A stretch of DNA of 36,377 nucleotides. Source: an uncultured Clostridia bacterium (GTDB lineage: Bacteria; Bacillota; Clostridia; Christensenellales; UBA1242). Where the stretch lies: assembly GCA_944384385.1 (NCBI GenBank), contig CALWTG010000003.1, forward strand, positions 1 through 36,377, written 5' to 3'. Under the pieces are notes generated by a model. That model made no database searches. It was not told the DNA's origin and saw nothing but the letters and a program-made list of their open reading frames with translations. Shown one piece after another: positions 1 through 33,608 of the stretch. Position numbers and translations under genes: made by a program. Numbering within the stretch: position 1 is the first letter of the stretch; every line of letters begins with the position of its first letter.

Positions 1-885
1 CTTGTAACGCTTTTTAAGTCTAGATAATGTTCTATGACTGGGCTTTGTTTTAATAAAACCTGTTTCTTTAAGTATCCAATGACGATTTAGAAACATAAAG
101 CCTTTGTCAATCCGCCATATTTTAGTTTTCTTTAGGTTTAGTTTCAATTTTAATTTTTCGCTAAACTCTTTTAAAACCTCAATACACTCTCTTAATTTTT
201 CTTTTGAGTTGCAAATAATGTATCCATCATCCATATACCGACCATAATATTTCATGTGCATTTTTTCTTTTAAAAAGTGGTCTAGTTCATTTGTGTAAAA
301 CAATGCACTGATTTGAGAGATTTGACTTCCCAGTCCAAGTCCAGCTTCACCCTCGAAAGAATTTACAAAGTATTCATATAAGTTGAATAACCTTTTGTCA
401 TGTATAAGTTTTCTAGCCTTTTGCAGTAAAATTTTATGATTGATGCTGTCAAAGAATTTTGAAAAATCAAAAGTTAAAATGTATCCAACATTGCCTTTAT
501 TCTTGCGAAAATACTTTTGTAGATGGGCTTTCAACCTGTTCGCTGTAAACATCAGTCCTTTATTTTTCATGCAAGCACCATTGTCATAAATTAAACTTTT
601 TGAAAGTAGTGGCACTAGAAAGTAATCACAAAAACATTTTTGAACAACTCTATCTTTGATGTGCAGTGCTTTTATTTCTCGTGTTTTTCCTCTCTCGTGT
701 ATTTTAAACTTTGCAAATGGTCGTTGCTTATATGTTCCACTATGTAGAGAATTATAGGTTTCTGCTATGTTCTGTATGGAACGGACTTGATAATTTTTGG
801 TAGATGTTTTCCAATTTACACCTTTGCAACATTCTTTATAACTATTGAATAAGTTTTCAAATGTGAATACTTCTTCAAATTTCAT
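1..885 (-). CDS. DGR reverse transcriptase (3' end truncated by window edge; absent from ORF track)
   Basis: Manual translation from ATG at 885 (AGGAG RBS upstream) is open for 295 codons to base 1: MKFEEVFTFENLFNSY...ERGKTREIKALHIKDRVVQ...TFDFSKFFDSINH...GLGLGSQISQ...YYGRYMDDG. It has the YxDD catalytic motif and a GxxxSQ motif in place of QGxxxSP. Confidence 0.96.
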   Translation of the reverse strand, partial: MKFEEVFTFENLFNSYKECCKGVNWKTSTKNYQVRSIQNIAETYNSLHSGTYKQRPFAKFKIHERGKTREIKALHIKDRVVQKCFCDYFLVPLLSKSLIYDNGACMKNKGLMFTANRLKAHLQKYFRKNKGNVGYILTFDFSKFFDSINHKILLQKARKLIHDKRLFNLYEYFVNSFEGEAGLGLGSQISQISALFYTNELDHFLKEKMHMKYYGRYMDDGYIICNSKEKLRECIEVLKEFSEKLKLKLNLKKTKIWRIDKGFMFLNRHWILKETGFIKTKPSHRTLSRLKKRYK

Positions 886-1053
886 CCTAAACTCCTTTGT
901 AAGATATTCTCGAATAGCCAATTACTTAATTAAAGTAAGGCTCATCAAAGGTCAAATTTTTAACTACTATGTAGTTAGGGAAATATAGTTCCTTTTGCAT
1001 TATGCCGCTTTCGCTTTAAAGAGCTACTTTGTTTGGCAAATATTTCGTAAAAT

Positions 1054-1178
1054 CAGAGAGCCACCGCACGAGTATTGTTGGCATTGTTGTTGTTGACATA
1101 CCCATTGTTATTCCAGTTAGCAAAATTGTTAGTGTTGTTAGGGTTAGGAGAACGAAGCCACTGGTTGTTGCCAAACCT
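1054..1178 (-). repeat. DGR template repeat (TR)
   Basis: 125 nt non-coding repeat between avd and RT. Minus strand reads RFGNNQWLRSPNPNNTNNFANWNNNGYVNNNNANNTRAVAL* with 17 AAC/AAT codons; aligns without gaps to 1783-1907 and 21228-21334. Confidence 0.97.
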
Positions 1179-1193
1179 CCGGGTGATTTACAA

Positions 1194-1586
1194 CTATATA
1201 CCCAAGCGTTGCTTGTCTTTATTTTTAACGCCTTTTATAAGTCTTTCAGTAATTCCTATCAAAGTCGCCCACTTATTCCAATACTTATCTTCAAGCTTGA
1301 TGTAAGATTTTATAAGCTCTAAATGATTGCTTAAGCAAGCCAAAGTTCCAAGCGCATCATCAAGCAATTCTGTTCGTTTTTGATAGTATGTTTTAAGGTC
1401 TAAATTGTTTGCTTTAATAAGATTATCCAAGACAGCTTGTGCATACTTATAAGTGTGTATAACGCCATAAAAAGTATATTTTTTAGGTATCTTACTACAC
1501 ATGTGCACTGTGAATTTTAATAAATCTCTCGCATAACTTATAAATTCCATAGTGCTTTCACTTCTTTTGTATGCTGGAACGCTCAT
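1194..1586 (-). CDS. avd: DGR accessory variability determinant (Avd-like four-helix bundle protein)
   Basis: 130 aa basic helical protein with IPKKYTF motif and C-terminal W...LIKG segment, immediately upstream of TR and RT. Confidence 0.88.
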   Translation of the reverse strand: MSVPAYKRSESTMEFISYARDLLKFTVHMCSKIPKKYTFYGVIHTYKYAQAVLDNLIKANNLDLKTYYQKRTELLDDALGTLACLSNHLELIKSYIKLEDKYWNKWATLIGITERLIKGVKNKDKQRLGI

Positions 1587-1722: not shown

Positions 1723-1740
1723 GCACGCTTTTCAGCGTGC
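1723..1740 (-). promoter_or_regulatory. DGR homing hairpin/cruciform downstream of VR1
   Basis: GCACGCT-GAAA-AGCGTGC: perfect 7-bp GC-rich stem with GAAA loop, 29 nt after the target stop codon. Confidence 0.85.
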
Positions 1741-1769: not shown

Positions 1770-3008
1770 CTAAATGCAAAAGCAGAGAGCCACCGCACGA
1801 GTAGGGTTGGCACCGTTGATGAAGACATACCCATAGCTATACCAGTAAGCAAAACTGTGAGTGATGTTAGGGTAAGGAGAACGAAGCCACTGGCAGTTGC
1901 CAAACCTTAATTTCTTCTCCTCATATTCTTTGTAATACTCATACTGCTCACCCTCAAGCCCAACCTTACTATAACTTGTTGTATATCTTTTTGATGTATC
2001 GCTACCAAACACTTCGCCATCAGCCAATAAGAATAGCCAGTCTTTTGTTTTTATAATTGTGTTATCGCTAGAGCTTTTGTTTCCACCATATCCACCCCAT
2101 GTAAGCTTTGTTACTTGTTTTATTACAGCTGACAAGTCGGTAGGAAGTCCAGCAATAAATGCTCCATCGGCTTCCAAAGTTGTTTTTGAATAATATTTTG
2201 TGCCTTCAACATAATCAGTAGGCAATGTAACCTGTGTGAATGTTTCGTTGTCATCATTTAAAGTGTAATAAGTTCCTTCAGTAGTGCTTGTTACAGAAGT
2301 ATCAAAAACATATTGGTCTTCATTGCTCTTTAAACAATTGCTTCTTATAAGAGAACCTATCCATGAAATACCATTGATATTTGCTGGAGCTGTATCCCAG
2401 TGTTTATAAGTTGAGCTTGTGTATGGCAGTTTAAATGTGATGCCAGCTTTTCCACTTCCACTTGCCAAATCATCATGGTCAAAACCTATAATAGTTGCTC
2501 TTGTGTAAGTTGTTGATGTTTGTCCCATAAATGCTGATAAATCTTTAGTATCACCCAAACTCCACATATACTTTGCATATCCACCCTCTGATGCTGTTTT
2601 AATTTCATTCCAAGTATAGTCATCAAAAGCTTTGCCTGTTTTAACATTGTAAACACCCATTTCACTAATTGTAACCGTGTTAGTCCATACTTGAGCGTTT
2701 TCACTATTCTTTGCCTTAAGTGTGTATGTCCCAGCAGTATTAAGGTTAAATTCCACTGCACCACCACTTGTTCCTGTGCTCTTGCTTTCTATAAGTGCAT
2801 CATCTATCCCATATAATTCAATTGTTATATTAGGCAGTTCTGCTGTCTTGATTTTGTAACTATTCCCACCACTTGGAATAGAGTTTACGCCAGCTGTAAG
2901 CTCAGGCAGTGAAACATTAGTATTTGCGACAGTAACTGTGCCACCTTTTTGAGTAATTGCATTTTTAATATTTTGCAATTCCTGAAAAACATCTTGTTGT
3001 GTTGCCAT
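1770..3008 (-). CDS. DGR target protein 1; probable receptor-binding/tail-fibre tip protein with C-terminal CLec-like (DUF6273-like) domain
   Basis: 412 aa at the end of the tail cluster; motifs DWLFLLADGEVFG, GEQYEYY, WLRSP; VR1 encodes the C-terminus. Confidence 0.9.
   Translation of the reverse strand: MATQQDVFQELQNIKNAITQKGGTVTVANTNVSLPELTAGVNSIPSGGNSYKIKTAELPNITIELYGIDDALIESKSTGTSGGAVEFNLNTAGTYTLKAKNSENAQVWTNTVTISEMGVYNVKTGKAFDDYTWNEIKTASEGGYAKYMWSLGDTKDLSAFMGQTSTTYTRATIIGFDHDDLASGSGKAGITFKLPYTSSTYKHWDTAPANINGISWIGSLIRSNCLKSNEDQYVFDTSVTSTTEGTYYTLNDDNETFTQVTLPTDYVEGTKYYSKTTLEADGAFIAGLPTDLSAVIKQVTKLTWGGYGGNKSSSDNTIIKTKDWLFLLADGEVFGSDTSKRYTTSYSKVGLEGEQYEYYKEYEEKKLRFGNCQWLRSPYPNITHSFAYWYSYGYVFINGANPTRAVALCFCI
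1783..1907 (-). repeat. DGR variable repeat 1 (VR1)
   Basis: 125 nt ungapped match to TR with 17 mismatches, every one at a TR adenine (T on + strand). Confidence 0.97.
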
Positions 3009-16775: not shown

Positions 16776-17045
16776 TTACAACTCTCTTCCATTTGTGATA
16801 TCTGACAGCCTTTCGATACTCCGATGCACTATCCGTTTTATCTGTCTTTCGCAGTATGCAATCTTACGACCACATGTGCTATATGATTTCCCATTTATGT
16901 AGCACTCTGTCATTACTTCAGCTTCAAGTGCTGGTAAAAGGCTAAACAACTGCTTATATTTTTGAGATTTCTCATTGATTATGCCACGCTTGTTTAAGTT
17001 CCGTATCTCTCGCAGTTCGTTTTTAATTTCTTTGATATTGCCCAT
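16776..17045 (-). CDS. RinA/ArpU-like late transcriptional activator (sigma region-4-like HTH)
   Basis: LPALEAEVMTECYINGKSYSTCGRKIAYCERQIKRIVHRSIERL; last gene before terS. Confidence 0.75.
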   Translation of the reverse strand: MGNIKEIKNELREIRNLNKRGIINEKSQKYKQLFSLLPALEAEVMTECYINGKSYSTCGRKIAYCERQIKRIVHRSIERLSDITNGREL

Positions 17046-17057
17046 GCTACCCTCCTA

Positions 17058-17246
17058 TTATTTAGAGTTTTTGTTTTGCAGTGCGTTTTTTATCTCCTCA
17101 AGTTGTTTATTCAAATTGCTCATAGCACTTGTAATTGATTGGCTTACAATATTGATTGCATCTATTACGCCTTTGTTATAAGCCTTATTTAATTGTTCAT
17201 TAAATTGCTCTTGGCTTATAATAGATTTCTTATCATTCTCTGACAT
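17058..17246 (-). CDS. Hypothetical protein
   Basis: 62 aa, in operon, with RBS. Confidence 0.7.
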   Translation of the reverse strand: MSENDKKSIISQEQFNEQLNKAYNKGVIDAINIVSQSITSAMSNLNKQLEEIKNALQNKNSK

Positions 17247-17261
17247 CTACTTTCCCTCCTT

Positions 17262-17651
17262 TTAATTTGCTGGTAACTTGCCAGTAACTTGCTGATAAAA
17301 TATATTTTCAAAATCTATCCTATCTTCATTATAAATTTTGTAGTTTATATCTCTCAGAACATCACACGCTTCTTTACAAGCCTTTTTCCAAGTATCTCGG
17401 TCTTTCTTTAAGTCATCCATTTCCTCGCAAATAGCAAAATCTCTACCTTGATTTTTAGAATAATCATCAAGAAAACACTCAATTTCTTCCACACTCTCAA
17501 TACCATATTTTTCGAGTATATCTTCGAGTTTGCCCAACTTTTCACAAACTTCAGTTATATAGCAAATTTCCTTTTTACAAGAATAACAACTTGAAAATTC
17601 ACCACACTTATTTATTGCCTCGTGATTTTTATCCGTCAATCTCTCTGCCAT
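17262..17651 (-). CDS. Hypothetical phage protein
   Basis: Start reassigned to MAERLTDK (17651, GGAGG RBS); Cys-rich segment then KLGKLED. Confidence 0.7.
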   Translation of the reverse strand: MAERLTDKNHEAINKCGEFSSCYSCKKEICYITEVCEKLGKLEDILEKYGIESVEEIECFLDDYSKNQGRDFAICEEMDDLKKDRDTWKKACKEACDVLRDINYKIYNEDRIDFENIFYQQVTGKLPAN

Positions 17652-17652
17652 A

Positions 17653-18324
17653 TTATACCTCCCAAATAAGTTTATCTTGTCTAAAATCTTCACCCATAAT
17701 ATCACGCAAACTTTCTTTCATGAATATTCTAACTTTTGCTTTGTCGCATTGTTTAACTATATCATCTATCCATTCTTTCTTAGGTATAACTTTACCTTTT
17801 CTATTGCCTGTTTCTGCACCGATAATAACTTGTTTTACATATAGATTATATTTTAATGAAGATAAATTTATATGTTCTAGTATAGGTTCTATGCTTAAGA
17901 AATCGTATTGTTCCAGTCCATTAAAATCATCATCTCTCGTTAACGACATGCCAATAAAAATATTTCTGCATTTATCAATACTTCTCAAAGTCCAAATCGT
18001 GCCTATACCATTATTTAAACCACTTTTACATTTTGTTAAGAATATATAATTATGTTGAGGGTTTTTGCTCATTGCCTTAAATACTTCATAACCCCATTTT
18101 GCTTCCCACCAACCAACATCACTCATACTATCCATAAATATCGATTTAGGCTTTTTAGATTTTAGTTGCTCAAGTCTTTCAGGAAAGAATTGTGGTTCGT
18201 TCCAGTCTTTGATAAAATGAAAGCGGTTATTTATTTTTCTTGCATAGCAGTAAGGACAGCCATTCTTACAACCAACAACAGGGTTTATTGTGCAATCGCA
18301 CCAATCTATCTTTGTTTGTTTCAT
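17653..18324 (-). CDS. Gp37/Gp68 (DUF5131) family radical-SAM-like protein
   Basis: TKIDWCDCTINPVVGCKNGCPYCYA (CxxxCxxC), IFMDSMSD, FLTK, FLSIEP, VIIGAETG, IFMK. Confidence 0.88.
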   Translation of the reverse strand: MKQTKIDWCDCTINPVVGCKNGCPYCYARKINNRFHFIKDWNEPQFFPERLEQLKSKKPKSIFMDSMSDVGWWEAKWGYEVFKAMSKNPQHNYIFLTKCKSGLNNGIGTIWTLRSIDKCRNIFIGMSLTRDDDFNGLEQYDFLSIEPILEHINLSSLKYNLYVKQVIIGAETGNRKGKVIPKKEWIDDIVKQCDKAKVRIFMKESLRDIMGEDFRQDKLIWEV

Positions 18325-18410
18325 TCCCCACCTCGCAGTTCTTGTAGTTTTTTCTCGGCTTCGGTTTCTGTAGCGAAAACATATTTATCTTCCCATAGTT
18401 GCTCACTCAT
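18321..18410 (-). CDS. Small hypothetical protein (29 aa), not in ORF track
   Basis: MSEQLWEDKYVFATETEAEKKLQELRGGE*; overlaps both neighbours and fills the gap exactly. Confidence 0.55.
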   Translation of the reverse strand: MSEQLWEDKYVFATETEAEKKLQELRGGE

Positions 18411-18720
18411 ACTCTTTCTCCAGTTCTTGCATATAAGTCAGCACTTTTCTATAAGCGATGGCAACCTTACAATTTTCTTCATCGCTAAACTTTTTACTAA
18501 CTCTTTCTTTTAACTCAGCCCAGCGCATTTTTTGGCTAGTTACTTTAGTTTGCAAATCAGCTTCTTCCATTAAACATTTATGATAAAGTGAAGAATATTC
18601 TTCGAGTTCCTGCTTTTCTTTCTTGAGCCTTCTTATTTTCTTTTTACAAGCAAAATAGTGTTGCCATTTCTCTTCTGCGCTATATCTTCCAAACTTTGCC
18701 TTTAACTCTGATTTTTTCAT
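18403..18720 (-). CDS. Hypothetical coiled-coil protein
   Basis: 105 aa; ATGA overlap with the upstream gene. Confidence 0.7.
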   Translation of the reverse strand: MKKSELKAKFGRYSAEEKWQHYFACKKKIRRLKKEKQELEEYSSLYHKCLMEEADLQTKVTSQKMRWAELKERVSKKFSDEENCKVAIAYRKVLTYMQELEKEYE

Positions 18721-19541
18721 TTTCCCTCCTTTTTATCTTCATAGATATAAACTTTTCTAAATCTATATCTAAAAAACAAACCTTTTTTACCCATAACAAT
18801 AGGCTTTGTTTTGCCATCTTCAAAAATGACTTGTTCTTTGTCGATATCAACTCTGTAGCTAGGCACTTCAGCCAATATGTATTTTTCTAGTTTTGACTGA
18901 TATTTAAAGATTAAGTATAAATCAAAGGCACACACATTTATAAGCACAAACCAGTCAACCAATGTCAATGATGCCCAGTCAATAAAGCCGCTACCCAAGA
19001 AACAAATTGTAGCTATGCCAATAGTTCTAAATATGATAACTATAATTGCAAAATACCAATACTTCATTTTTGTCATTCCAGCGACTGCACAGAGCGCATC
19101 ATCCGGGAATATAGGAAACAACAACATAAGTGGCAGTAGCATTTTTGATTTCATATCTAAAAGATTTTGAGCTTTCTCTAAACTGCTTTTACCCACCAGT
19201 TTCTCAATTGTTTTTTCGCCCAATGTATTGCCAAGAAAAAACATAAGAGAAGATGCAAGAAAAACTGATATTGTGCTTATAATAAAACCATATAAAGCAC
19301 CAAACAACACAATTGATATTGCTATAAATGTTGCTGATGTTCCCGGCATAAAGCATAATAGTGTAGCACTAATTACAAATAGTAAAATAAACACTACCCA
19401 GCCCCATGCTCCACATCTTTCAACAAGTTCTCTTAAGCCTTCTAGGTCGGTTACCCCTAGCGCTTTAAGTGCGAAATATACCCCCACACTCAAAGCAACT
19501 ATAACCAACACTGTTATTAAAATTTTAACCCAGTTTTTCAT
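18717..19541 (-). CDS. DedA-superfamily (TVP38/TMEM64, VTT domain) membrane protein
   Basis: Multiple TM segments; FMPGTS...GALYGFIIS...GNTLG and LLFPIFPDDALCAVAGMTKM motifs. Confidence 0.88.
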   Translation of the reverse strand: MKNWVKILITVLVIVALSVGVYFALKALGVTDLEGLRELVERCGAWGWVVFILLFVISATLLCFMPGTSATFIAISIVLFGALYGFIISTISVFLASSLMFFLGNTLGEKTIEKLVGKSSLEKAQNLLDMKSKMLLPLMLLFPIFPDDALCAVAGMTKMKYWYFAIIVIIFRTIGIATICFLGSGFIDWASLTLVDWFVLINVCAFDLYLIFKYQSKLEKYILAEVPSYRVDIDKEQVIFEDGKTKPIVMGKKGLFFRYRFRKVYIYEDKKEGK

Positions 19542-21169
19542 AAATCTTCTCCTATCATTTGTCTAAAAATTGCCATTAAAACATTGACAACTATACTATC
19601 TCCAGCGAGATGATAAAGACTTGCATTGCTTTGATTTTGTGCAACCTTATCAAAATCTTCATCTTTTACACCCATAAGTCTAAAACATTCTTTAGGTGTA
19701 AGTTTTCTTATCCTTAAATTACTTATGTATGCAAATGAGCCACATCCGCAATCATTACCACAACTTGTTGATAATGTTCCAGCAATTCCATCTTTTAATG
19801 GCCTCGCATTATATAAGTCAACAAACTCGGGTATTTCGCCATTATTGTTCTTTATTGTTTCAGCAAGTTTCTTATCAACGTATTTCTCTTGTTGCTTTAC
19901 AACCACACCCAAACAATCGCATCTTGTATCTAGTGTTGGACTGCAATCGTGGAATTGATTATTTTGAATATACATATTATCCATTCTGCTTTTTGAATAG
20001 CTATGTCGGATAACATCATTCTCTACCACTCGATTATTTACTATAAGCGAGTTACATAGTTGTCTTTTTAAATTATCTTCAACTGCATACAACCCAGTTT
20101 TTGCACCCATTCCACCACCATTTGCAACAAGACTAACAGAGATGCCTTCAGTGTCATAAACTCTGTAGCCTTGTGGTTGATTTTGTGTAAGTTCCATAAG
20201 TTGTGGCTCAACTACACATTTAGGGTCTTTATAATCTCTTGCCATTATTGTTGGGCATATCCCATCTTTAGGTATTTTGTTCTCAAGCTTGCTTGATGTA
20301 AAATTAGTTTTTAAGCTACCTTCTATCGCTTTACTGCTCAAATAATATTTTTCATCAACTTCTTTTTCGAGAATATCTTTGAGCCTTATTTCCAATTTTT
20401 GTTTTTTAGGAAACTCATACAAATAATCACCAAGCAAACTAACCATAAAGCATCTTTCTCTATTTTGTGGCACGCCAAAATCTTTCGCATTTAACACTTG
20501 CCAATAGCAGTGGTAGCCTAACTTTTCCAGCTTTTCTAGCCATTTTGCAAAATGTATTATATTTTTACTACCAATAACATCAGGAACATTCTCCATAAGC
20601 AGTATTTGTGGTAAGTTCTCACACTCATCAAGTATCCTTTCAACTTCCCAAAGCATCCCGGACCTCGTGCCACTACCTTTCTCCATTCCTTTGCCCAGTC
20701 CAGCTTTTGACAGGTCTTGACACGGAAATGAATAAGTCATTAGATAGCAATATTTATCTACATCCACAATTTCTAAATCACTTGCCTTTACTTGTTGAAT
20801 ATTAACTAAATTGTGTGAAGCTTTAATATTATTATAAATTTGTCTTTGTTTTTGCTCGCCCAGTCTTTTGATTTGCTCTCTTGTCATAGGCTCATTATAA
20901 TTTGCACTTATGCCTTTACTTGTAAGATAATCTATCATTTCGTCTTGCGTTAAATTTTTAGAGTAGTCTGTTATATCATCTTTGAAATGCAAATCTTTTA
21001 ATGCTTGTATGCTCTTTACAGCCCATTCGCAAGTTTTGTAATGCTCAAAATTTATGTTTAAATATTTAAGTGCAAGTGCTTGACTGTCATAGCCACTAAA
21101 CAATGATATAAGGCGGACTGGCTTGTTGAGTTTAAAAGGCATTGTTCCATCGAATATACTTCTCTGCAT
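19538..21169 (-). CDS. DNA (cytosine-5) methyltransferase, long variable region
   Basis: LFSGYD (motif I), FPCQDLS (IV), MENV (VI), QNRER (VIII), RKLTPKECFRLMG (IX), AGDSI (X). Confidence 0.93.
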   Translation of the reverse strand: MQRSIFDGTMPFKLNKPVRLISLFSGYDSQALALKYLNINFEHYKTCEWAVKSIQALKDLHFKDDITDYSKNLTQDEMIDYLTSKGISANYNEPMTREQIKRLGEQKQRQIYNNIKASHNLVNIQQVKASDLEIVDVDKYCYLMTYSFPCQDLSKAGLGKGMEKGSGTRSGMLWEVERILDECENLPQILLMENVPDVIGSKNIIHFAKWLEKLEKLGYHCYWQVLNAKDFGVPQNRERCFMVSLLGDYLYEFPKKQKLEIRLKDILEKEVDEKYYLSSKAIEGSLKTNFTSSKLENKIPKDGICPTIMARDYKDPKCVVEPQLMELTQNQPQGYRVYDTEGISVSLVANGGGMGAKTGLYAVEDNLKRQLCNSLIVNNRVVENDVIRHSYSKSRMDNMYIQNNQFHDCSPTLDTRCDCLGVVVKQQEKYVDKKLAETIKNNNGEIPEFVDLYNARPLKDGIAGTLSTSCGNDCGCGSFAYISNLRIRKLTPKECFRLMGVKDEDFDKVAQNQSNASLYHLAGDSIVVNVLMAIFRQMIGEDL

Positions 21170-21184
21170 TTTATCCTCCTTTGC

Positions 21185-21200
21185 GTGCCCTTTCGTGCAC
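21185..21200 (-). promoter_or_regulatory. Imperfect DGR homing hairpin downstream of VR2
   Basis: GTGCAC-GAAA-GGGCAC: 6-bp stem with one A:G mismatch, GAAA loop, 14 nt after the stop codon. Confidence 0.7.
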
Positions 21201-21214
21201 TTTGATTGTTTTGA

Positions 21215-21964
21215 TTAAAGACAAAAGCAGAGAGCCACCGCACGAGTATTGTTGGCATAGTTGTTGTTGACATACCCAGTGTTATTCCAGGGAGCAAAAG
21301 TGTTAGTGGTGTAAGGGTTAGGAGAACGAAGCCATGTCCATGTATAAGGCAGATTTGAGTTTTTAAAATATTCATAAATTTCACCCTCACCCTCACAAGA
21401 ACAATCAGTAGTTCCTGCTATCTCAATTTCGCTAGGTAAGAAAAGTTTGTCCGTTGTTTCCACTATTTCTTCACTTTCGCCACCAGCAGAAGTCTTTTTC
21501 TTTACTGGTAAAATTAGTGCTTGTAAGTCGCTTGGTAACAGCTTATAAAATCTAGGCATGTAAGTATTTCGCATCTTGCTATCTTTCCAGCCACCCACAT
21601 TTGTGCATTCTTCATTCATCTCATACTCGCCATCAACATAAAACATAAATGTGGCTTTTGCTTTTGTTGCTGGAGAATAATCAGCACGAACATCATGTGG
21701 GTTTAAGCTAATCAATTTTGCTTTCACTTTCTCGCCAGTGTATAACTCAAACTCTTTTTCATCCCCAACTCTTAATACTCGTTCAGCATCGCCTGAGTAT
21801 AAAATTGTTTTTATTTCGCTCCATGATAAGTCTTTTAGCTTTTTAAGTTCGCCTTTTAATTCGGCAACATAATTGTCGATTGTTTCCAACATAGCATCTT
21901 CGCCATGCACATTGTTTAATCTATTTTGCAATTCTTTGATTGCATTGATAACTTCGTTATTCAT
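21215..21964 (-). CDS. DGR target protein 2 (remote); short N-terminal coiled coil plus CLec-like (DUF6273-like) domain
   Basis: 249 aa; GGWKDSKMR, DKLFLPSEIEI, EGEIYEYF, WLRSP...RAVALCFCL; carries VR2. Confidence 0.92.
   Translation of the reverse strand: MNNEVINAIKELQNRLNNVHGEDAMLETIDNYVAELKGELKKLKDLSWSEIKTILYSGDAERVLRVGDEKEFELYTGEKVKAKLISLNPHDVRADYSPATKAKATFMFYVDGEYEMNEECTNVGGWKDSKMRNTYMPRFYKLLPSDLQALILPVKKKTSAGGESEEIVETTDKLFLPSEIEIAGTTDCSCEGEGEIYEYFKNSNLPYTWTWLRSPNPYTTNTFAPWNNTGYVNNNYANNTRAVALCFCL
21228..21334 (-). repeat. DGR variable repeat 2 (VR2)
   Basis: 107 nt ungapped match to TR 1054-1160 with 7 mismatches, all at TR adenines. Confidence 0.95.
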
Positions 21965-21972
21965 AATTCCTC

Positions 21973-22863
21973 CTAAAAAATTGAAGTTTCTTGCTGTTCA
22001 GTTAGCCTATAGCTTGTTCCCTGTAGTTTTATTTTTGCTGTGGACATTGCAGCAATTCTATCCACAGTCTTTTTCATAAGCCCACAATTTTCAACCAAGT
22101 CAACTAAACTTTCATTACTGGAGAATATTGTTGGCTTTTTGTTTACATATCTAGCATTTACTACATCGTAAATTTTGTCTTGCAACCATGTCTTTTCTCC
22201 GTTCTTAACCATTTGTTCTGTGCCTATATCATCAATTATCAAAAGGTCTATTGTTGCAAGCTTTTCAATAAAATCGCTTTCAGTGATAGAATTATCGCTA
22301 AACGATTTTTTAATTTGTTTTGAAATTTCAAAGAAATTTGTAAATAAAACTGGTATCATTTTTGCTAAAAGATAATTTCCGATGCAAGCGGTGAGCAAAC
22401 TTTTGCCAGTTCCGACATCGCCATAAAGGTAAATTCCTAACCCTTCTTTTTTAACATCTTCCCACCTTTCGCAAAAATTTTTGCATCTTGCAACAGCATC
22501 AATAAAATCTTGAGGTCGGTTTAGGTCTAAGCTATCAAAACTAGCATTTTTGTATCTTTCGCCAAGCAAACTCGCTTGCTTTAGTTTTTCAAAACGCATA
22601 AGTCTTTGCTTTTTCTGTTCTAACTCTCTCTGCTCTTCAAGAGCTTGCGATTGACATTTGCAAAGACAACCAGCTACAAATTTTCCATCTTGCCAATATC
22701 TTTTGCCTTTACAGTGCTCGCAAACCAGCTCATAATTTTCCGTTAGACAATCACCCTCTCGCATTTTGTATCTAGCAAAATAATTTTTTCTTGCAGTTAA
22801 GAGCTCTTCTTCGCTTAAAGGCTCATTGCTTGTTTCAAAAAACATTTTTGCTAACTCCCCCAT
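21973..22863 (-). CDS. DnaC/IstB-like AAA+ helicase loader
   Basis: CEHC...CLC zinc motif, GDVGTGKS Walker A, LLIIDDIG Walker B, PTIFSSN. Confidence 0.92.
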   Translation of the reverse strand: MGELAKMFFETSNEPLSEEELLTARKNYFARYKMREGDCLTENYELVCEHCKGKRYWQDGKFVAGCLCKCQSQALEEQRELEQKKQRLMRFEKLKQASLLGERYKNASFDSLDLNRPQDFIDAVARCKNFCERWEDVKKEGLGIYLYGDVGTGKSLLTACIGNYLLAKMIPVLFTNFFEISKQIKKSFSDNSITESDFIEKLATIDLLIIDDIGTEQMVKNGEKTWLQDKIYDVVNARYVNKKPTIFSSNESLVDLVENCGLMKKTVDRIAAMSTAKIKLQGTSYRLTEQQETSIF

Positions 22864-23666
22864 GCTTTCGCCTCCTCATCTGACACTTTTTCTTTTGCTG
22901 TTTGATTTGCTGGAGAGATGTTTTGGAGCTTTGCTTTCCGTTGTCTTTCTTCTTTCAAAGCATCAAACACCCATTTTTGTATTGCAAGATTATCACTCTT
23001 GCACTTATAGCCTTTCATCTCCCTATGGTAACTCAAATACTCTATTGCCTCTTTACCATCAGGTCTTGCAATTAAGCGATTGTATTCATCTTCAGTCAAA
23101 AGAACATTTTTGAATTGCCCATACTTGTGTTTAACTTTTTTATCAGGGAGTGAAAGTGAGCTCTGCTCGCTTTCTTTTACTCTCGTTAGAGAGTTTTCTT
23201 TATTTACTTTAATTTCTTCTTCTATTTCTATTTCTTTTTTAGGAACACACTCATCACTTACCACTACCGTAGTGCTACCGTAGTTGTCATTTACTCCTAC
23301 TTTACTTGTCAAATCTTGCTCTTCTTTACCCATATTTTCAGCAGGAATTTGGCTTGGTGTAGGCTTATTTATGGTTTGAAATTTGTCCCATTTTGTAAGC
23401 TGATAAAAGCGTTTCCCATCAACTTCATAGAAACGAATAGACATTTTGCCCTCTATCTCTTTGAGTGCTTTTTCAACATCGTTTACAGAGAGTTCTTCAT
23501 CGTATGCAAAAAGGTGAGATTTTAAATAGGCAACATTTGCTTTTCCACGACCTTCATCATCAGCATTTGAAAATAGTCCTATCCAAAGCAATCTTCCAAG
23601 ATATGAAAGCTTTGAGAAATCTTCACTTTCCCAAATTGATGGGTCAATCATTCTTTTTCTTGCCAT
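22851..23666 (-). CDS. Phage replication initiator / replisome organizer
   Basis: MARKRMIDPSIW...ADDEGRG N-terminal domain, KHKYGQFKNVLLTEDEY C-terminal part; upstream of the loader. Confidence 0.85.
   Translation of the reverse strand: MARKRMIDPSIWESEDFSKLSYLGRLLWIGLFSNADDEGRGKANVAYLKSHLFAYDEELSVNDVEKALKEIEGKMSIRFYEVDGKRFYQLTKWDKFQTINKPTPSQIPAENMGKEEQDLTSKVGVNDNYGSTTVVVSDECVPKKEIEIEEEIKVNKENSLTRVKESEQSSLSLPDKKVKHKYGQFKNVLLTEDEYNRLIARPDGKEAIEYLSYHREMKGYKCKSDNLAIQKWVFDALKEERQRKAKLQNISPANQTAKEKVSDEEAKAWGS
23263..23284. repeat. Iteron-like tandem repeat CTACCGTAGT x2 inside initiator gene (candidate ori)
   Basis: Copies at 23264-23273 and 23275-23284, near-palindromic, adjacent to an AT-rich TTTCTA-repeat tract. 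Confidence 0.45.
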
Positions 23667-24137
23667 TTAAACCTCCTTTAAGATGTCTAAAATAATTCTT
23701 CCAGCATCTTCTTTTTTGCATTGTATAAACTCGATATTATGTTTTTTCTTCCAAGCTTCAATAATCTTCGCCATAATATCGGCAGTAATTTTCATTCGCT
23801 TGTTTTGCCAAGTTTGCAGTGGCTGTTTTGTTTCAACTAAAATAAACATCTTTCCGCCACATTCATCCAATCTTTCAAGTTCTCTCTTAAATCGTTGGTG
23901 ATTTTTGCCACAATTACCAGCAAACTCATTCCAGTCAGCCTTTCGTTCAATAAAAACATTTGGCTTGTCCAAGTTGCAATAATCACCTATAGAACAAAGG
24001 TCATTTACTATGTAAGCAAAATCTAATTCCTTAACATTCTTAACCGACTTTTTATCAACTTTTGCAAGCCCTACTTGATTGAAATATTGCAAGATGTGGT
24101 CGTTTTTCTTTTCTCTGTTATCAACCTTTATTCTCAT
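23667..24137 (-). CDS. ERCC4-domain nuclease
   Basis: IKVDNREK, GDY, FIERK, RFKRELER, ILVE. Confidence 0.85.
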   Translation of the reverse strand: MRIKVDNREKKNDHILQYFNQVGLAKVDKKSVKNVKELDFAYIVNDLCSIGDYCNLDKPNVFIERKADWNEFAGNCGKNHQRFKRELERLDECGGKMFILVETKQPLQTWQNKRMKITADIMAKIIEAWKKKHNIEFIQCKKEDAGRIILDILKEV

Positions 24138-24328
24138 GCTGACACCTCATAGATATCAACATGAAAGAATTGAGCGCCATTGATGGCAAATTTACTAACA
24201 TTATCAATAAACATGTATTGACCTTCAACTGCTGATGCAATGCTTTCTGCCCACTCTCGTTTTATTTCTTGCGTAACCTTTTCGCCATTCCACTTGATAA
24301 ACTCGGCTATACATTTCTTTTCTTTCAT
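24134..24328 (-). CDS. Hypothetical protein
   Basis: 64 aa, AGGAG RBS, ATGA overlap downstream. Confidence 0.7.
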   Translation of the reverse strand: MKEKKCIAEFIKWNGEKVTQEIKREWAESIASAVEGQYMFIDNVSKFAINGAQFFHVDIYEVSA

Positions 24329-24367
24329 TTTTTGCTCCTTTTATCACTTATAAGGGTGTTTTTTAGG

Positions 24368-24724
24368 CTAAAAAGGCAAGCTGTCATCATCTATAGGTTC
24401 AAGCTCTGGCTGTGTCTTTTCTTGCACTTTAACGCAGTTTTCTTTAACAATAAAATCTGCATTTAGAGTATAATAAGTTTTTGTTTCACCATCCTTATCA
24501 ACCTTTTGGACTTTCAACTGACCACAAGCAAACACATGGTCGAATTTTTTAATTTCTTCAGGCTTTCTATTCCACACAGTTACATTGATAACCTCTGCAT
24601 CTTTGCCCATACTTACTGGTATTTCATAAAAAGTTTTGTCTTCAAACTCTTTTGTTCTCATATCATTGATAACCATACCAGCAACTACACAATCGTTTTT
24701 CTCGCCATTTCTTTTTATAAACAT
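24368..24724 (-). CDS. ssb: Single-stranded DNA-binding protein
   Basis: OB-fold-like INVTVW...VFACGQL pattern and acidic tail DDDSLPF. Confidence 0.8.
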   Translation of the reverse strand: MFIKRNGEKNDCVVAGMVINDMRTKEFEDKTFYEIPVSMGKDAEVINVTVWNRKPEEIKKFDHVFACGQLKVQKVDKDGETKTYYTLNADFIVKENCVKVQEKTQPELEPIDDDSLPF

Positions 24725-24728
24725 CGTT

Positions 24729-25034
24729 TTATTCCTCCCCTAAAATATCTTTTAGACTTTTTGGTAGTTCTCCAAGCATACCTTCTATACCTGTCATCAA
24801 AAGTTCTTTCTTTATACTATCTAAAGCCTCAACAAAGCCTATTATAGTTTTAGGAGTAAAAGCGCCAGAGCAGTTTACACCCGTTCTATCGCCCTCATCC
24901 CAAATAACAACACACGCTTCGGTGTTCTTGTTTAAAACAAAATCGTTTTTATCACCCTTCATTGAAACTTTGATTTCTATCTCAGTTTTTTTATTTGTTT
25001 TTCCAACATATTTAACAAAATCTTCTTTTTTCAT
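24729..25034 (-). CDS. Hypothetical protein
   Basis: 101 aa in operon with RBS. Confidence 0.7.
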   Translation of the reverse strand: MKKEDFVKYVGKTNKKTEIEIKVSMKGDKNDFVLNKNTEACVVIWDEGDRTGVNCSGAFTPKTIIGFVEALDSIKKELLMTGIEGMLGELPKSLKDILGEE

Positions 25035-27382: not shown

Positions 27383-27459
27383 GCGATGTGGTTTGGCTAT
27401 TTACCATTCTCATCTAAAGCTGACATGCAGTTAGAGTGCGTGTTAGCTTTTTCTTTTTT
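27383..27459 (+). ncRNA. Putative ~75-nt antisense sRNA to the 3' end of the XRE gene
   Basis: Bracketed by the promoter above and an intrinsic terminator; start inferred from -10 spacing. Confidence 0.55.
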
Positions 27460-27858
27460 ACTGACTATTGCAAGCTGTTTTTCAAATCGCCTCCAACAAT
27501 GCCAAGCAAAATCTTTTAAGCTGTGATAGCCACATTTTTCTAAATTTTCTTGTGTAAATGTTTTTCTTGCCTCATCGGGTAACCTTACCGAAAATTTATA
27601 CACTGCTGGTTCTCTTCTTGCTGTTACACATAGGCTTTTATCTTTCTTATCTTCTCGAATAGATAGATATATTTCGCCACGCTCATAAATGTCTTCAATT
27701 TCACAATTCAACTCTTTGCATATTGCTTCAAGCATTTTTGGAATAGGAATACACTTATATCTTTCAAAATTGCTCATCATTGGTGCATTTGTTCCAACTC
27801 TACTAGCTAAGTCTGCCTGTTCTATGCCACACTCCCGCCTTCTATCTTGCAATTTCAT
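27397..27858 (-). CDS. XRE/Cro-family HTH regulator
   Basis: LQDRRRECGIEQADLASRVG...MMSNFER...P...LEAICKEL pattern; GGAGG RBS. Confidence 0.85.
   Translation of the reverse strand: MKLQDRRRECGIEQADLASRVGTNAPMMSNFERYKCIPIPKMLEAICKELNCEIEDIYERGEIYLSIREDKKDKSLCVTARREPAVYKFSVRLPDEARKTFTQENLEKCGYHSLKDFAWHCWRRFEKQLAIVSKKEKANTHSNCMSALDENGK
27416..27459 (+). terminator. Intrinsic terminator of putative sRNA
   Basis: AGCTGACATGCA-GTTAGAG-TGCGTGTTAGCT (12 bp including two G:U pairs that form only on +) followed by TTTTCTTTTTT. Confidence 0.75.
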
Positions 27859-27885
27859 GCCATCACCTCCTTCTAGGCATATTCA

Positions 27886-28059
27886 CTATGCTACTTTTGC
27901 AAGATAATCTTTAATTGCAACACGAACAATATCGCTTAAAGATAAGCTTTCTTGTTTTGCGACTTCAATGAGCTTGCTGTGCATCTCACTTGTGATGTAA
28001 ACACCCAAACACTTTTTATCGCTTTTAAGTTGCTTGCCACCATGAATGTTCCCTCTCAT
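27886..28059 (-). CDS. Ribbon-helix-helix (CopG/Arc-like) regulator, 57 aa, not in ORF track
   Basis: GGAGG RBS; MRGNIHGGKQLKSDKKCLGVYITSEMHSKLIEVAKQESLSLSDIVRVAIKDYLAKVA*. Confidence 0.8.
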   Translation of the reverse strand: MRGNIHGGKQLKSDKKCLGVYITSEMHSKLIEVAKQESLSLSDIVRVAIKDYLAKVA

Positions 28060-28075: not shown

Positions 28076-28111
28076 AAATAAAAAATAAGGTTCGTCAGTT
28101 AAGACGAACCC
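28076..28111 (-). terminator. Intrinsic terminator-like hairpin 1
   Basis: GGTTCGTC-N6-GACGAACC (28089-28110) followed on minus strand by TTATTTTTTATTT. Confidence 0.65.
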
Positions 28112-28117
28112 TATAAT

Positions 28118-28150
28118 AAAAAAGTCCCATTGTCTTATCTGACAATGAGA
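28118..28150 (-). terminator. Intrinsic terminator-like hairpin 2
   Basis: Minus strand TCTCATTGTC-AGATAA-GACAATGGGA followed by CTTTTTT. Confidence 0.65.
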
Positions 28151-28195
28151 TTATCGCATATCATTTTTGCTTTTTATGAAAAAAAATACAAACTC

Positions 28196-28224
28196 TTGCA
28201 AATTCACAGCATTGATGGTATACT
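28196..28224 (+). promoter_or_regulatory. SigA-type promoter of first host gene
   Basis: TTGCAA - 17 bp - TATACT with TGn extension, then AAGGAG RBS before ATG 28244. Confidence 0.7.
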
Positions 28225-28243
28225 TAGCAGTAAGGAGTAATAT

Positions 28244-29668: not shown

Positions 29669-29673
29669 AAAAG

Positions 29674-29719
29674 AAAATAAGATAAATTTCAGTAATTTTT
29701 GAGATTTATCTTATTTTTT
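29674..29719. terminator. Bidirectional terminator between convergent genes
   Basis: AAAATAAGATAAATTTCA...TGAGATTTATCTTATTTT inverted repeat. Confidence 0.65.
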
Positions 29720-31907: not shown

Positions 31908-31912
31908 AAAAA

Positions 31913-31941
31913 TAATATGTGATTTTAAAAATATTGTATTC
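31913..31941 (-). promoter_or_regulatory. SigG-like promoter upstream of ligD
   Basis: GAATA - 17 bp - CATATTA, ending 5 nt before the ATG; AT-rich context lowers specificity. Confidence 0.4.
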
Positions 31942-32044
31942 AACTAAAAATTTATAAAAACAACAAAAAAATATAAAAAAACATATTTTTTTCATAATAT
32001 TTGTTTATATTTTTCACAAATTATATTTGCAATTAGGAGGAATT

Positions 32045-32839: not shown

Positions 32840-32863
32840 GATGACGAAAAGTCATCTTTTTTT
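32838..32863 (+). terminator. Intrinsic terminator
   Basis: AAGATGAC-GAAAA-GTCATCTT followed by TTTTT. Confidence 0.75.
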
Positions 32864-32901
32864 AATCATAATTAAATATATTTAATAATGAGGGTTGCAA
32901 C

Positions 32902-33590: not shown

Positions 33591-33608
33591 GGTTTTACAT
33601 ATGTGGTT

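What the first reader, a model, noticed from the sequence alone, without database searches (positions are those of the whole stretch)
21185..21964. Second, remote DGR target sitting inside the phage DNA-replication operon
Seen: 21228-21334 matches the TR 20 kb away over 107 nt with 7 mismatches, all at TR adenines. It shares the 3' CTCTGCTTTTG end with VR1 and has its own GAAA-loop hairpin. At the four TR positions where both VRs vary (1085, 1118, 1126, 1135) they carry different bases, and no substitution within the aligned span is shared, which argues for independent retrohoming rather than a VR1 copy. The gene lies between the DnaC-like loader and the C5 methyltransferase, upstream of the late activator, and lacks the N-terminal region of target 1 and any signal peptide. 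Established: the BPP-1 DGR diversifies a virion receptor-binding protein, and multi-target DGRs exist. Inference: one template diversifies both a virion adhesin and an early cytoplasmic ligand-binding protein, for example a hypervariable binder of host defence or regulatory proteins. That would be a poorly described use of a phage DGR.
Basis: partly seen in the sequence, partly recalled or inferred. Interest (0 to 1): 0.93.

Follow-up and report, generated by a model that had tools for sequence, protein, structure and literature searches.

The report
Second DGR target in early operon
A chicken-gut prophage uses one mutagenic retroelement to diversify both a tail-module protein and a small lectin-fold protein encoded among its DNA-replication genes; the arrangement is real and conserved, has a few published precedents, and hints at a hypervariable binding protein that works inside the infected cell.

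Summary
Window 21223-21334 (- strand) is a 112-nt copy of the template repeat (TR 1049-1160). It has 7 internal differences, all at TR adenines, and the VR-type 3' end that it shares with VR1. It forms the in-frame 3' end of a 249-aa DUF6273/C-type-lectin gene (21215-21964), which lies 8 nt after a DnaC-like loader gene and 45 nt before a C5 methyltransferase gene.

Close relatives differ almost only at the TR's AAY codons. The same TR + VR1 + distant VR2 layout recurs in three other genomes. Small homologues sit among recombination, replication, methylase or RNA-repair genes in 21 of 21 loci with annotated neighbours, across four phage lineages, and also in FP_Toutatis. In one lineage, 9 of 9 are fused to an intact HAD-type phosphatase.

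So VR2 is a genuine, active, non-adjacent DGR target. An early, non-virion role is favoured by context but not shown.

Non-adjacent prophage targets, small DUF6273 second targets and a "non-structural" second target among methylases are already in print: PMC5758913, PMC10743442, 10.1101/2024.10.15.618418 and PMC8008677. I therefore rate it a new member of a known, poorly understood kind.

The parts
21223..21334 (-). VR2, the variable repeat. It forms the last 37 codons of target 2 and includes 18 positions that are AAY (Asn) codons in the TR.
   Evidence: 112-nt ungapped match to TR 1049-1160; 7 of 7 internal differences at TR adenines
21222..21248 (-). 3' end of VR2, IMH-like: 27 nt identical to the end of VR1. 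It carries C and G where the TR has A (TR 1053 and 1048).
   Evidence: The role as initiation site of mutagenic homing is inferred from the BPP-1 description quoted in PMC5758913.
21185..21200 (-). Imperfect GC hairpin with a GAAA loop, 21 nt downstream of VR2, in the 45-nt spacer before the methylase gene.
   Evidence: DNA fold and pattern scan. Equivalent hairpins follow all 8 VRs of four genomes and none of the 4 TRs.
21215..21964 (-). Target 2 gene, 249 aa: two N-terminal helices (residues 2-16 and 22-36) followed by a DUF6273 / C-type-lectin-fold domain (about residues 46-249).
   Evidence: Pfam PF19789 E 4.8e-14. AF2 model pLDDT 92.8, pTM 0.86. Fold matches.
21973..22863 (-). DnaC-like helicase loader gene. 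Its TAG stop overlaps the AGGAGG ribosome-binding site of target 2.
   Evidence: phrog_50 E 1e-57 and IstB_IS21; sequence
22851..23666 (-). Replication initiation protein gene
   Evidence: phrog_1408 E 1.9e-29
19538..21169 (-). C5 cytosine DNA methyltransferase gene, directly downstream of target 2
   Evidence: PF00145 E 2e-54
1049..1178 (-). Template repeat (TR). 1049-1160 is the part shared with VR2. It holds 40 adenines in 130 nt.
1194..1586 (-). avd (accessory variability determinant) gene
   Evidence: phrog_3206 E 4e-5
1..894 (-). DGR reverse transcriptase gene, cut by the contig end; about 55 C-terminal residues are missing.
   Evidence: RVT_1 E 1.5e-23 and phrog_1423 E 5.4e-81. No other RT piece is present in the assembly.
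1778..1907 (-). VR1, at the 3' end of target 1
   Evidence: 17 of 17 internal differences at TR adenines
1770..3008 (-). Target 1 gene, 412 aa, the last gene of the tail module; it has a DUF6273 domain.
   Evidence: PF19789 E 1.4e-5. Close homologues vary mainly in the VR: 4 of 368 residues outside against 15 of 44 inside for P0124.
1723..1740 (-). Perfect 7-bp hairpin with a GAAA loop downstream of VR1

Best explanation
VR2 is a genuine, currently active, non-adjacent target of the prophage's single DGR.

Mechanism (inferred from the DGR model). TR RNA is reverse-transcribed with errors at adenines. The cDNA replaces the last 112 nt of gene 21215-21964. Entry at the 3' side uses the VR-type end and the downstream GAAA hairpin. 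Resolution at the 5' side uses a 15-nt adenine-free stretch (codons W-L-R-S-P) that is identical in TR, VR1 and VR2. This randomises up to 18 Asn-templated codons on one face of a compact C-type-lectin (DUF6273) domain.

Gene context. The gene belongs to the early replication/recombination operon and is translationally packed behind the DnaC-like loader gene. It encodes a small soluble protein with no signal peptide, no membrane segment and no recognisable virion-attachment domain.

Most likely function (inferred). The protein is made early and acts inside the infected cell as a hypervariable binding module directed at a variable host or competitor molecule, in phage-host conflict. Target 1 would be the virion-side adhesin.

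Status of the steps. Shown: the TR/VR relation, the fold, the conservation, the natural variation and the gene context. Inferred: timing of expression, location and ligand.

Confidence. That it is a real, active second target: about 0.95. That it acts off the virion, inside the cell: about 0.45. The figure below refers to the whole statement.
For: TR/VR relation:
- A-only differences, and no substitution shared with VR1.
- VR-type end and hairpin are present at VR2 and absent at the TR. The same holds for 8 of 8 VRs and 0 of 4 TRs in four genomes.
- VR2 is in frame and 18 of its codons are AAY in the TR.

Natural variation:
- Homologues P0004-P0007 (86-93% identical) differ at 6-19 of 210 residues outside the VR and 11-16 of 39 inside (Fisher p 6e-5 to 1e-8).
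- 144 of 148 of their VR residues are reachable by adenine changes alone.
- In another sample's contig the VR2 core 21240-21313 is replaced by 73 unalignable letters while the flanks align (X7).

Conserved layout:
- G001, G002 and G003 each have TR, VR1 and a distant VR2 in the homologous gene. Differences at TR adenines: VR2 15 of 16, 15 of 15 and 19 of 27; VR1 12 of 12, 20 of 20 and 21 of 22.
- G001 and G002 keep the order RepInit - DnaC - target 2 - ... - VTT.

Operon:
- 8-nt gap, with the loader's stop codon inside target 2's ribosome-binding site.
- No terminator-like site on the - strand between 28085 and 16790 (this is a weak pattern scan).

Context across lineages:
- 21 of 21 loci with annotated neighbours place the small homologue next to recombination, replication, methylase or RNA-repair genes.
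- FP_Toutatis gp24 lies between methylases and the replication initiator / antiterminator Q, with 13 of 14 TR differences at A.

Fusion:
- 9 of 9 lineage-B genes, plus P0037, join the module to a BT0820-type HAD phosphatase with the DxDGT and DD motifs intact (NF046079 E 4e-28; PDB 2obb E 5.7e-21).
- The fused gene in L022 is itself a DGR target: 14 of 16 differences at A, about 9 kb from the TR.

No export or anchor signals:
- No hydrophobic segment.
- No Mtd_N domain, which related 283-294-aa proteins do carry.

Fold: C-type lectin, like the DGR target TvpA.
Against: - No expression, localisation or virion data exist for this protein. No listed sequencing run is RNA.
- Every experimentally studied phage DGR target is a receptor-binding virion protein.
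- DUF6273 domains are common in tail-fibre and Hoc-like phage proteins. Close paralogues carry Mtd_N, a virion-attachment domain. The best solved match is the N-terminal domain of a secreted, cell-wall-anchored IgA peptidase.
- Published authors read small DUF6273 second targets as receptor-binding proteins (PMC10743442; 10.1101/2024.10.15.618418).
- Gene position does not fix the time of expression or exclude incorporation into particles.
- The neighbour survey labelled only part of the ORFs. Labels were transferred by BLASTP from three PHROG/Pfam-annotated loci, so unlabelled structural genes nearby cannot be excluded.
- VR2 here carries few changes (7 of 34 adenines, against 17 of 40 in VR1), so strong selection on it in this genome is not evident.
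- The RT gene is incomplete in the assembly.
Confidence: 0.45

Rival explanations
1. Target 2 is a second virion-associated receptor-binding or adhesion protein. It would dock through its two N-terminal helices to a tail or head protein, and its gene merely happens to lie in the early region. The DGR would then diversify two host- or environment-recognition proteins.
For: - All characterised phage DGR targets are virion proteins.
- BFVD fold matches include proteins named tail-collar fibre and receptor-binding protein.
- Homologues at 38-40% identity carry Mtd_N.
- Target 1 and target 2 share the same variable scaffold (44% identity over the last 107 residues).
- The authors of PMC10743442 and 10.1101/2024.10.15.618418 propose this role for small DUF6273 targets.
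Against: - No attachment domain was found: no Mtd_N in Pfam at E <= 0.01, and only two short helices before the lectin domain.
- The gene lies within replication, recombination or methylase neighbourhoods in 21 of 21 annotated loci and never next to a labelled structural gene.
- HAD-phosphatase fusions are hard to reconcile with a fibre tip.
Confidence: 0.3
2. Target 2 is soluble and works outside the cell without being part of the particle. It would be released at lysis, or expressed from the prophage, and would bind bacterial, dietary or host-animal glycans or proteins, for example as a decoy or an aggregation factor.
For: - Lectin folds mostly bind extracellular ligands.
- A 2026 preprint reports a DGR-targeted DUF6273/tentaclin protein of Mushu-like prophages in the bacterial secretome without particles (10.64898/2026.05.08.723808, passages read).
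- The DUF6273 domain of a secreted IgA peptidase is the best solved match (Z 14.4).
Against: - No signal peptide or membrane segment.
- The gene is embedded in the lytic early operon rather than beside the lysogeny or moron genes.
- The phosphatase fusions point to cytoplasmic chemistry.
Confidence: 0.15
3. VR2 is a passive remnant: a former target, or a recombination-derived copy of a VR1 allele that the DGR no longer rewrites.
For: - Only 7 of 34 adenine positions differ from the TR.
- VR2's hairpin is imperfect.
- A contig of run X11 carries, at the place of VR1, a copy identical to this VR2 over 113 nt. This would fit exchange between the two VRs.
Against: - Close relatives show heavy variation in VR2 confined to adenine-templated codons.
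- Three further genomes keep an A-mutated VR2.
- A near-TR sequence is what a recent homing event leaves, not what decay leaves.
Confidence: 0.05

Closest known systems
Quimbyvirus ('Quimbyviridae', Bacteroides phages) second DGR target (Benler et al. 2021, PMC8008677; passages read)
   Same: One DGR has two C-type-lectin targets. One lies after the tail genes. [quoted passage not shown]
   Different: The host phylum differs (Bacteroidetes, against Clostridia MAGs here). The Quimbyvirus target lies on the opposite strand, whereas this one is inside the replication operon on the same strand. Sequence relatedness to the Quimbyvirus ORF was not tested here. No enzyme fusions are reported in the passages I read.
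FP_Toutatis gp24 / phage Lelie 'small DGR target' (10.1101/2024.10.15.618418; PMC11792537)
   Same: A small DUF6273-only protein acts as a second target, 17,480 nt from the TR, and belongs to the core genome. I find it in the early region between methylases and the replication initiator / antiterminator Q, with 13 of 14 TR differences at A.
   Different: tblastn with target 2 did not reach it at E 1e-5. Its VR ends about 117 nt before the stop codon. The host phage is a myovirus of Faecalibacterium. The authors favour a receptor-binding role.
nd4_tgt2 / nd12_tgt2 of gut myoviruses (Baykov et al. 2023, PMC10743442; sections 2.1 and 2.5 read)
   Same: 234-294-aa proteins with a DUF6273 domain only: a single lectin-fold globule flanked by short helices, with the VR at the 3' end. 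They are the second target of one TR, and VR2 is shorter than VR1.
   Different: They are described as part of the DGR cassette, not as remote. Their partner target is a tentaclin (N-terminal lectin domain plus Ig domains), unlike target 1 here.
Bordetella phage BPP-1 Mtd
   Same: DGR target with a C-type-lectin fold, a C-terminal VR, AAY-templated codons, an IMH and a downstream inverted repeat (described in PMC5758913).
   Different: Mtd has an N-terminal beta-prism (Mtd_N) and a beta-sandwich, and it sits on the tail fibres. Target 2 has neither domain and is not encoded next to the cassette.
Non-adjacent targets of prophage DGRs (Wu et al. 2018, PMC5758913; passages read)
   Same: [quoted passage not shown] 45 of 372 DGRs had non-adjacent targets.
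   Different: That survey did not analyse the functional module or the protein family of these targets in the passages I read. Its supplementary table was not available to me.

Membership tests
DGR variable repeat / target gene | Differences between TR and VR confined to TR adenines | tested here: met
   7 of 7 internal differences at A, p 2.4e-4
DGR variable repeat / target gene | VR lies in frame at the 3' end of an ORF, with the variable sites in AAY-type codons | tested here: met
   VR2 starts at codon 211 in frame 0. 18 codons are AAY in the TR.
DGR variable repeat / target gene | The VR's 3' end (IMH) differs from the TR's, and a GC-rich inverted repeat follows the VR but not the TR | tested here: met
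   VR1 and VR2 share C and G where the TR has A at 1053 and 1048. There is a hairpin at 21185-21200 and none after the TR. VR2's stem is imperfect.
DGR variable repeat / target gene | Cognate RT, Avd and TR in the same element | tested here: met
   RT 1-894 (cut by the contig end), avd 1194-1586, TR 1049-1178
DGR variable repeat / target gene | Ongoing adenine-directed diversification in populations | tested here: met
   In close homologues, 144 of 148 VR residues are reachable by A changes and the VR is enriched in differences. Within-sample read polymorphism could not be tested, because only contigs were available.
DGR variable repeat / target gene | VR displayed on a C-type-lectin fold | tested here: met
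   AF2 pLDDT 92.8. TvpA 2y3c Z 6.9 and many CTLDs at Z about 5; DUF6273 domain of 9qa6 Z 14.4.
Pfam DUF6273 (PF19789) | Score above the gathering threshold | tested here: met
   53 bits against 23.5, residues 113-249
Mtd-like virion receptor-binding protein | Mtd_N (PF18454) / beta-prism attachment domain | tested here: not met
   No PF18454 match at E <= 0.01 in P0001, although P0085 and P0123 have it. The model shows two helices before the lectin domain.
Mtd-like virion receptor-binding protein | Presence in virions and a role in adsorption | not testable with these tools
   Needs virion proteomics and genetics
Tentaclin (PMC10743442) | N-terminal lectin domain with the VR near the 5' end, followed by Ig-like domains | tested here: not met
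   The VR is C-terminal and no Ig domain is present
Non-structural second DGR target in a counter-defence neighbourhood (Quimbyvirus type, PMC8008677) | Distal to the structural module, beside methyltransferase, nuclease or RNA-repair genes | tested here: met
   Lies between the DnaC-like loader and the C5 methylase, with an ERCC4 nuclease 1.7 kb upstream. Homologues sit beside methylases, RecE/RecT and RNase H/PNK-like genes.
Non-structural second DGR target in a counter-defence neighbourhood (Quimbyvirus type, PMC8008677) | Sequence homology to the Quimbyvirus target | not tested
   The Quimbyvirus ORF was not fetched

The most novel reading that the evidence does not exclude
Temperate phages of gut Clostridia carry a widespread class of small DUF6273 lectin-fold proteins that the phage's own DGR rewrites at a distance. 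These proteins are made from the early replication/recombination/methylase operon and act inside the infected cell as an antibody-like, hypervariable recognition module. The module occurs alone, as in this window, or coupled to an effector such as a HAD phosphatase. It would bind fast-evolving host defence proteins or competitor-phage molecules. One template would then serve two arms races at once: adsorption (target 1) and intracellular counter-defence (target 2).
Probability: 0.35. Interest if true: 0.85.

Novelty: new member of a known kind. Interest (0 to 1): 0.6.

Why it matters
DGRs are the only known natural system of targeted protein hypermutation in prokaryotes. In phages their purpose is almost always equated with switching receptors.

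A second target that is consistently encoded among early replication, recombination, methylase and RNA-repair genes, and is sometimes fused to a phosphatase, would mean phages also diversify an intracellular recognition protein. Such a protein would be a candidate 'adaptive' counter-defence factor.

This window, its relatives, and the cultivable FP_Toutatis/Lelie system make the question testable. The fusion gives a first handle on an effector function.

If the protein instead turns out to be a virion adhesin, the result still shows that receptor-binding genes can sit in early operons and be rewritten tens of kilobases from the cassette. Surveys limited to RT-adjacent windows miss such targets, as stated in PMC8144416.

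Tried and rejected
Searches and tools that gave nothing or were closed:
- Megablast of 17000-25000 against 50,697 phage records: no match.
- First viral-contig scan with the single protein: 0 relatives. With alignment A2: 1 locus.

Sequencing runs:
- 20 rows in 12 studies, chicken or bird gut. No RNA holder is listed, so nothing can be said on expression.
- Read laying returned only contigs, so within-sample polymorphism could not be measured.
- Its table of other letters is truncated (679 rows not shown). At VR2 it is partly confounded by TR-bearing contigs of X2 and X11 that lie on VR2.
- Of the 7 VR2 rows shown, 6 fall on TR-adenine positions and 1 (21278) does not. For X3, where a single contig covers the site, 4 of 4 do. 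I treat this as illustrative only.

Other attempts:
- Homotrimer prediction of target 2 (three copies, alignment A3): no verdict (scores 0.33, 0.00, 0.01). It counts neither for nor against oligomerisation.
- The promoter/terminator scan was not enriched over shuffles: 54 promoter-like sites against 48.1 +/- 7.2, and 11 terminator-like sites against 6.9 +/- 2.6. I use only the absence of - strand terminator-like sites between 28085 and 16790, and that weakly.
- BLASTP of target 2's N-terminus against all window proteins found nothing significant (best E 1.4). No anchor motif shared with tail proteins was detected.
- No target-1 homologue (P0124-P0134) has the window's VR2 peptide, so the X11 oddity stays unexplained.

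Explanations rejected:
- VR2 as a plain duplicate of VR1: the flanks and all internal substitutions differ.
- Misassembly: independent contigs from other samples span the locus.

Literature:
- Searches: 'DUF6273' (7 papers); DGR + 'remote target' (9); DGR + Shimadzu + Roseburia intestinalis (2); DGR + anti-defense + phage + cytoplasmic (1 review); DGR + 'replication module' (9); DGR + HAD + phosphatase + 'target protein' (1 unrelated paper).
- I found no paper in this library that describes HAD-phosphatase-DUF6273 DGR targets, or the consistent early-module placement of small DUF6273 targets.
Table S1 of PMC5758913 and the additional files of PMC8008677 may hold relevant cases.

Rows left out of the 21-locus neighbour count: L021 (the same contig as L006), L039 (1 kb), L040 and L041 (no labelled neighbours), and L042-L045 (partial matches or proteins of 362-2713 aa).
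Full report
**What is in the sequence**

The window is a whole 36,377-base contig of a 1.06-Mb, 106-contig, about 90%-complete assembly. Public runs that hold it are chicken or bird gut metagenomes: 20 rows in 12 studies.

Nearly all phage genes lie on the - strand. In the direction of transcription they are:
- regulators (27397-28059);
- Erf-like annealing protein, exonuclease, NinB, ERCC4 nuclease, replication initiator and DnaC-like loader;
- the gene in question (21215-21964);
- a C5 methylase, a VTT/DedA membrane protein and a DUF5131 protein;
- a small Sigma70_r4-like regulator;
- terminase, portal, major capsid protein, large structural proteins and a tail-fibre-like protein;
- target 1 (1770-3008), avd (1194-1586), the TR (1049-1178) and a reverse transcriptase gene cut by the contig end (1-894).

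To the right of about 28.1 kb lie LigD and other apparently cellular genes. The element is therefore a prophage.

**Check of the observation**

Three copies of one repeat exist in the window and in the whole assembly.

On the - strand, 21223-21334 matches TR 1049-1160 without gaps.
- Seven internal differences all fall on TR adenines.
- The eighth (TR 1053, A>C) and the next position (TR 1048, A>G) are shared by VR1 and VR2. They mark the VR-type end as against the TR-type end.
- With 34 adenines in 112 positions, 7 of 7 at A has p = 2.4e-4. VR1 has 17 of 17.
- At the four positions changed in both VRs the bases differ.

VR2's homology begins 18 nt later than VR1's. It starts with a 15-nt adenine-free stretch common to all three copies.

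A GAAA-loop hairpin follows VR2 after 21 nt. It is weaker than the perfect 7-bp hairpin after VR1. The TR has none. This matches the elements described for BPP-1: an IMH, and a GC-rich inverted repeat after the VR but not after the TR (PMC5758913, passage read).

**The protein**

The 249-aa product scores 53 bits on Pfam DUF6273, against a cut-off of 23.5.

An AlphaFold2 model from 46 homologues is confident (pLDDT 92.8, pTM 0.86). It shows two N-terminal helices (2-16 and 22-36) and a compact domain from about residue 46.

Structural matches:
- best match: the DUF6273 N-terminal domain of the Thomasclavelia ramosa IgA peptidase (9qa6; Z 14.4, rmsd 2.4 Å over 165 residues);
- a Bacteroides ovatus fimbrial protein (Z 8.1);
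- Legionella Lcl (Z 7.6);
- the Treponema DGR target TvpA (Z 6.9);
- dozens of C-type lectin domains (Z about 5).

Predicted viral structures of DUF6273 proteins match at E down to 2.7e-13.

The protein has no hydrophobic segment and no Mtd_N domain.

VR2 is in frame. 18 of its codons are AAY in the TR, and the TR reads TGA where the VRs read TGC.

**Is VR2 being rewritten?**

Four database homologues at 86-93% identity are almost identical to target 2 outside the VR (6-19 differences in 210 residues). Inside it they differ at 11-16 of 39 positions. 144 of their 148 VR residues can be reached from this TR by changing adenines only. The four exceptions sit at two adjacent codons, where related TRs read differently.

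Target 1 behaves the same way: P0124 has 4 of 368 differences outside the VR and 15 of 44 inside.

In contigs of other samples the locus is intact, but the VR2 core can be unalignable (X7).

**Is the layout conserved?**

Two MAGs of uncultured Clostridia/Clostridiales (G001, G002) carry related prophages with the order HTH - Erf - Exo - NinB - ... - ERCC4 - RepInit - DnaC - target 2 - ... - VTT, at 50-83% protein identity. In each, the homologue's 3' end has two further copies 26-27 kb away and about 710 nt apart.

Taking the A-rich copy as the template, the differences at A are:
- G001: VR1 12 of 12, VR2 15 of 16;
- G002: VR1 20 of 20, VR2 15 of 15;
- G003 (a Christensenella MAG whose TR and VR1 lie on another contig): VR1 21 of 22, VR2 19 of 27. 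The last alignment ran into the flanks.

All eight VRs are followed by a short GC hairpin, mostly with a GAAA loop. None of the four TRs is.

**Wider family and neighbourhoods**

277 proteins match target 2 at E <= 0.001. Genome, virus and metagenome scans gave 29 loci.

I labelled ORFs by PHROG/Pfam scans of representative loci and transferred the labels by BLASTP. In every one of the 21 loci with labelled neighbours, the small homologue lies among nucleic-acid-metabolism genes:
- Lineage A (2 loci plus the window): after the DnaC-like loader.
- Lineage B (9 loci): after two methylases and DUF1599, before a repressor-like gene and a replication initiator.
- Lineage C (3 loci): between a RecE-like exonuclease and RecT.
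- Lineage D (7 loci): after an RT-like gene and RNase H, before PNK-like, nucleotidyltransferase and phosphoesterase genes.

Eight loci were left out as duplicate, too short, unlabelled, or encoding much larger proteins.

L022 (lineage B) and L032 (lineage C) contain the cassette itself. The distant VR differs from the TR at A in 14 of 16 and 20 of 26 positions.

In FP_Toutatis, gp24 is the DUF6273 second target. It lies between methylases and the replication initiator / antiterminator Q, with 13 of 14 differences at A.

In lineage B all 9 genes, and also cluster P0037 (52 member sequences), are fusions with an N-terminal BT0820-type HAD phosphatase. Support: NF046079 E 4e-28 (below its equivalog cut-off because the match is partial), PDB 2obb E 5.7e-21, and intact DxDGT and DD motifs.

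Other homologues (283-294 aa) instead carry Mtd_N. The same variable module is thus combined with different N-terminal parts.

**Interpretation**

That VR2 is a real, active, non-adjacent DGR target is very well supported.

That it is co-transcribed with the replication genes follows from three points:
- the 8-nt spacing;
- the loader's stop codon lying inside target 2's ribosome-binding site;
- the absence of terminator-like sites on that strand up to 16790 (weak evidence).

That the protein works inside the cell is an inference. It rests on the recurring neighbourhoods, the phosphatase fusions, and the lack of export and virion-attachment signals. Against it stand the extracellular or virion habit of most DUF6273 and lectin-fold proteins, the Mtd_N-bearing paralogues, and the complete lack of expression or proteome data. 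I put this reading at about 0.45, a virion accessory adhesin at 0.3, a released soluble binder at 0.15 and a passive remnant at 0.05.

In the excised circular genome the cassette and target 2 are probably closer than 20 kb. L022 and L032 show RT - lysogeny/early genes - target 2 within 7.5-9 kb. This is also an inference.

**Comparison with what is known**

- Non-adjacent targets within prophages were catalogued in 2018 (PMC5758913).
- Small DUF6273-only second targets were modelled in 2023 and read as receptor-binding proteins (PMC10743442).
- The FP_Toutatis/Lelie pair was described in 2024.
- Most relevant, Benler et al. 2021 described a second Quimbyvirus target away from the structural module, among a nuclease, four methylases and a tRNA ligase. 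They suggested a non-structural role in phage-host conflict (PMC8008677).

The present case is therefore a new member of a known but barely studied kind. I did not find in the searched library either the consistent early-module placement of the small DUF6273 targets across several Clostridia phage lineages or their fusion to a HAD phosphatase.

**Verdict**

Novelty is moderate. Interest is 0.6. It rises to about 0.85 if the intracellular, antibody-like reading (probability about 0.35) is shown.

Noticed in passing
Run X11 laid on window 21222-21334 (record 4): A 2087-nt contig from another study holds a TR-type copy. 728 nt further on, where VR1 sits in the window, it holds a VR-type copy with 0 differences to this window's VR2 over 113 nt. 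The next 77 letters do not lie on target 2. This could be VR1/VR2 gene conversion, one cDNA homing to both targets, or an assembly chimera.
   Followed up: partly
L022-L030 (for example L028:9554-10729) and protein P0037: 391-aa genes fuse a BT0820-family HAD phosphatase (DxDGT and DD motifs intact) to the helical + DUF6273 module of target 2. In L022 this fusion is a DGR target about 9 kb from the TR. Neighbours are an N6/N4 methylase, a Dam methylase, DUF1599 ('nucleotide modification associated domain 1') and a replication initiator.
   Followed up: yes
L004, L007, L035-L038 (for example L007:7653-8843 and 9399-9848): In a fourth lineage the target-2 homologue directly follows an RNase H gene and a second, non-DGR-type reverse-transcriptase-like gene (phrog_2825 E 1.9e-41). 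PNK-like, nucleotidyltransferase and phosphoesterase/RNA-ligase-like genes follow it. No TR copy was found in the two such loci I scanned (L035, L038). In G003 the TR and VR1 lie on another contig.
   Followed up: partly
window 21978-22933: In runs X7 (one contig) and probably X3 (no cover), the DnaC-like loader gene is replaced by 595 unrelated letters, while target 2 and the replication initiator stay in place. The replication module is mosaic around a retained target 2.
   Followed up: no
window 18717-19541: A VTT/DedA-family membrane protein gene (PF09335 E 1.3e-16) lies in the early operon. It is conserved near target 2 in L005, L006 and L032. This is an unusual phage cargo gene.
   Followed up: no
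window 17653-18324: DUF5131 / 'radical SAM mobile pair protein A'-like gene (TIGR04471 E 6e-42, below the cut-off) between the methylase region and the putative late regulator.
   Followed up: no
window 1049-1057: The TR reads TGA where both VRs read TGC (Cys246 of target 2). The TR copy is therefore closed as a reading frame exactly at the IMH-type difference.
   Followed up: yes
window 28085-36377: The prophage's early end seems to lie near 28.1 kb, where there are two terminator-like hairpins. Beyond it are a LiaG-like membrane protein gene, a complete three-domain LigD, a SIMPL protein gene and a 26%-GC ORF of more than 922 aa with no family match. No integrase lies on this side, so it is probably beyond the truncated RT at the other contig end.
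   Followed up: no
window 19538-21169: The C5 methylase is 543 aa long. Its Pfam match is spread over residues 105-539 for a 324-position profile, so it carries large insertions, probably a long target-recognition region.
   Followed up: no
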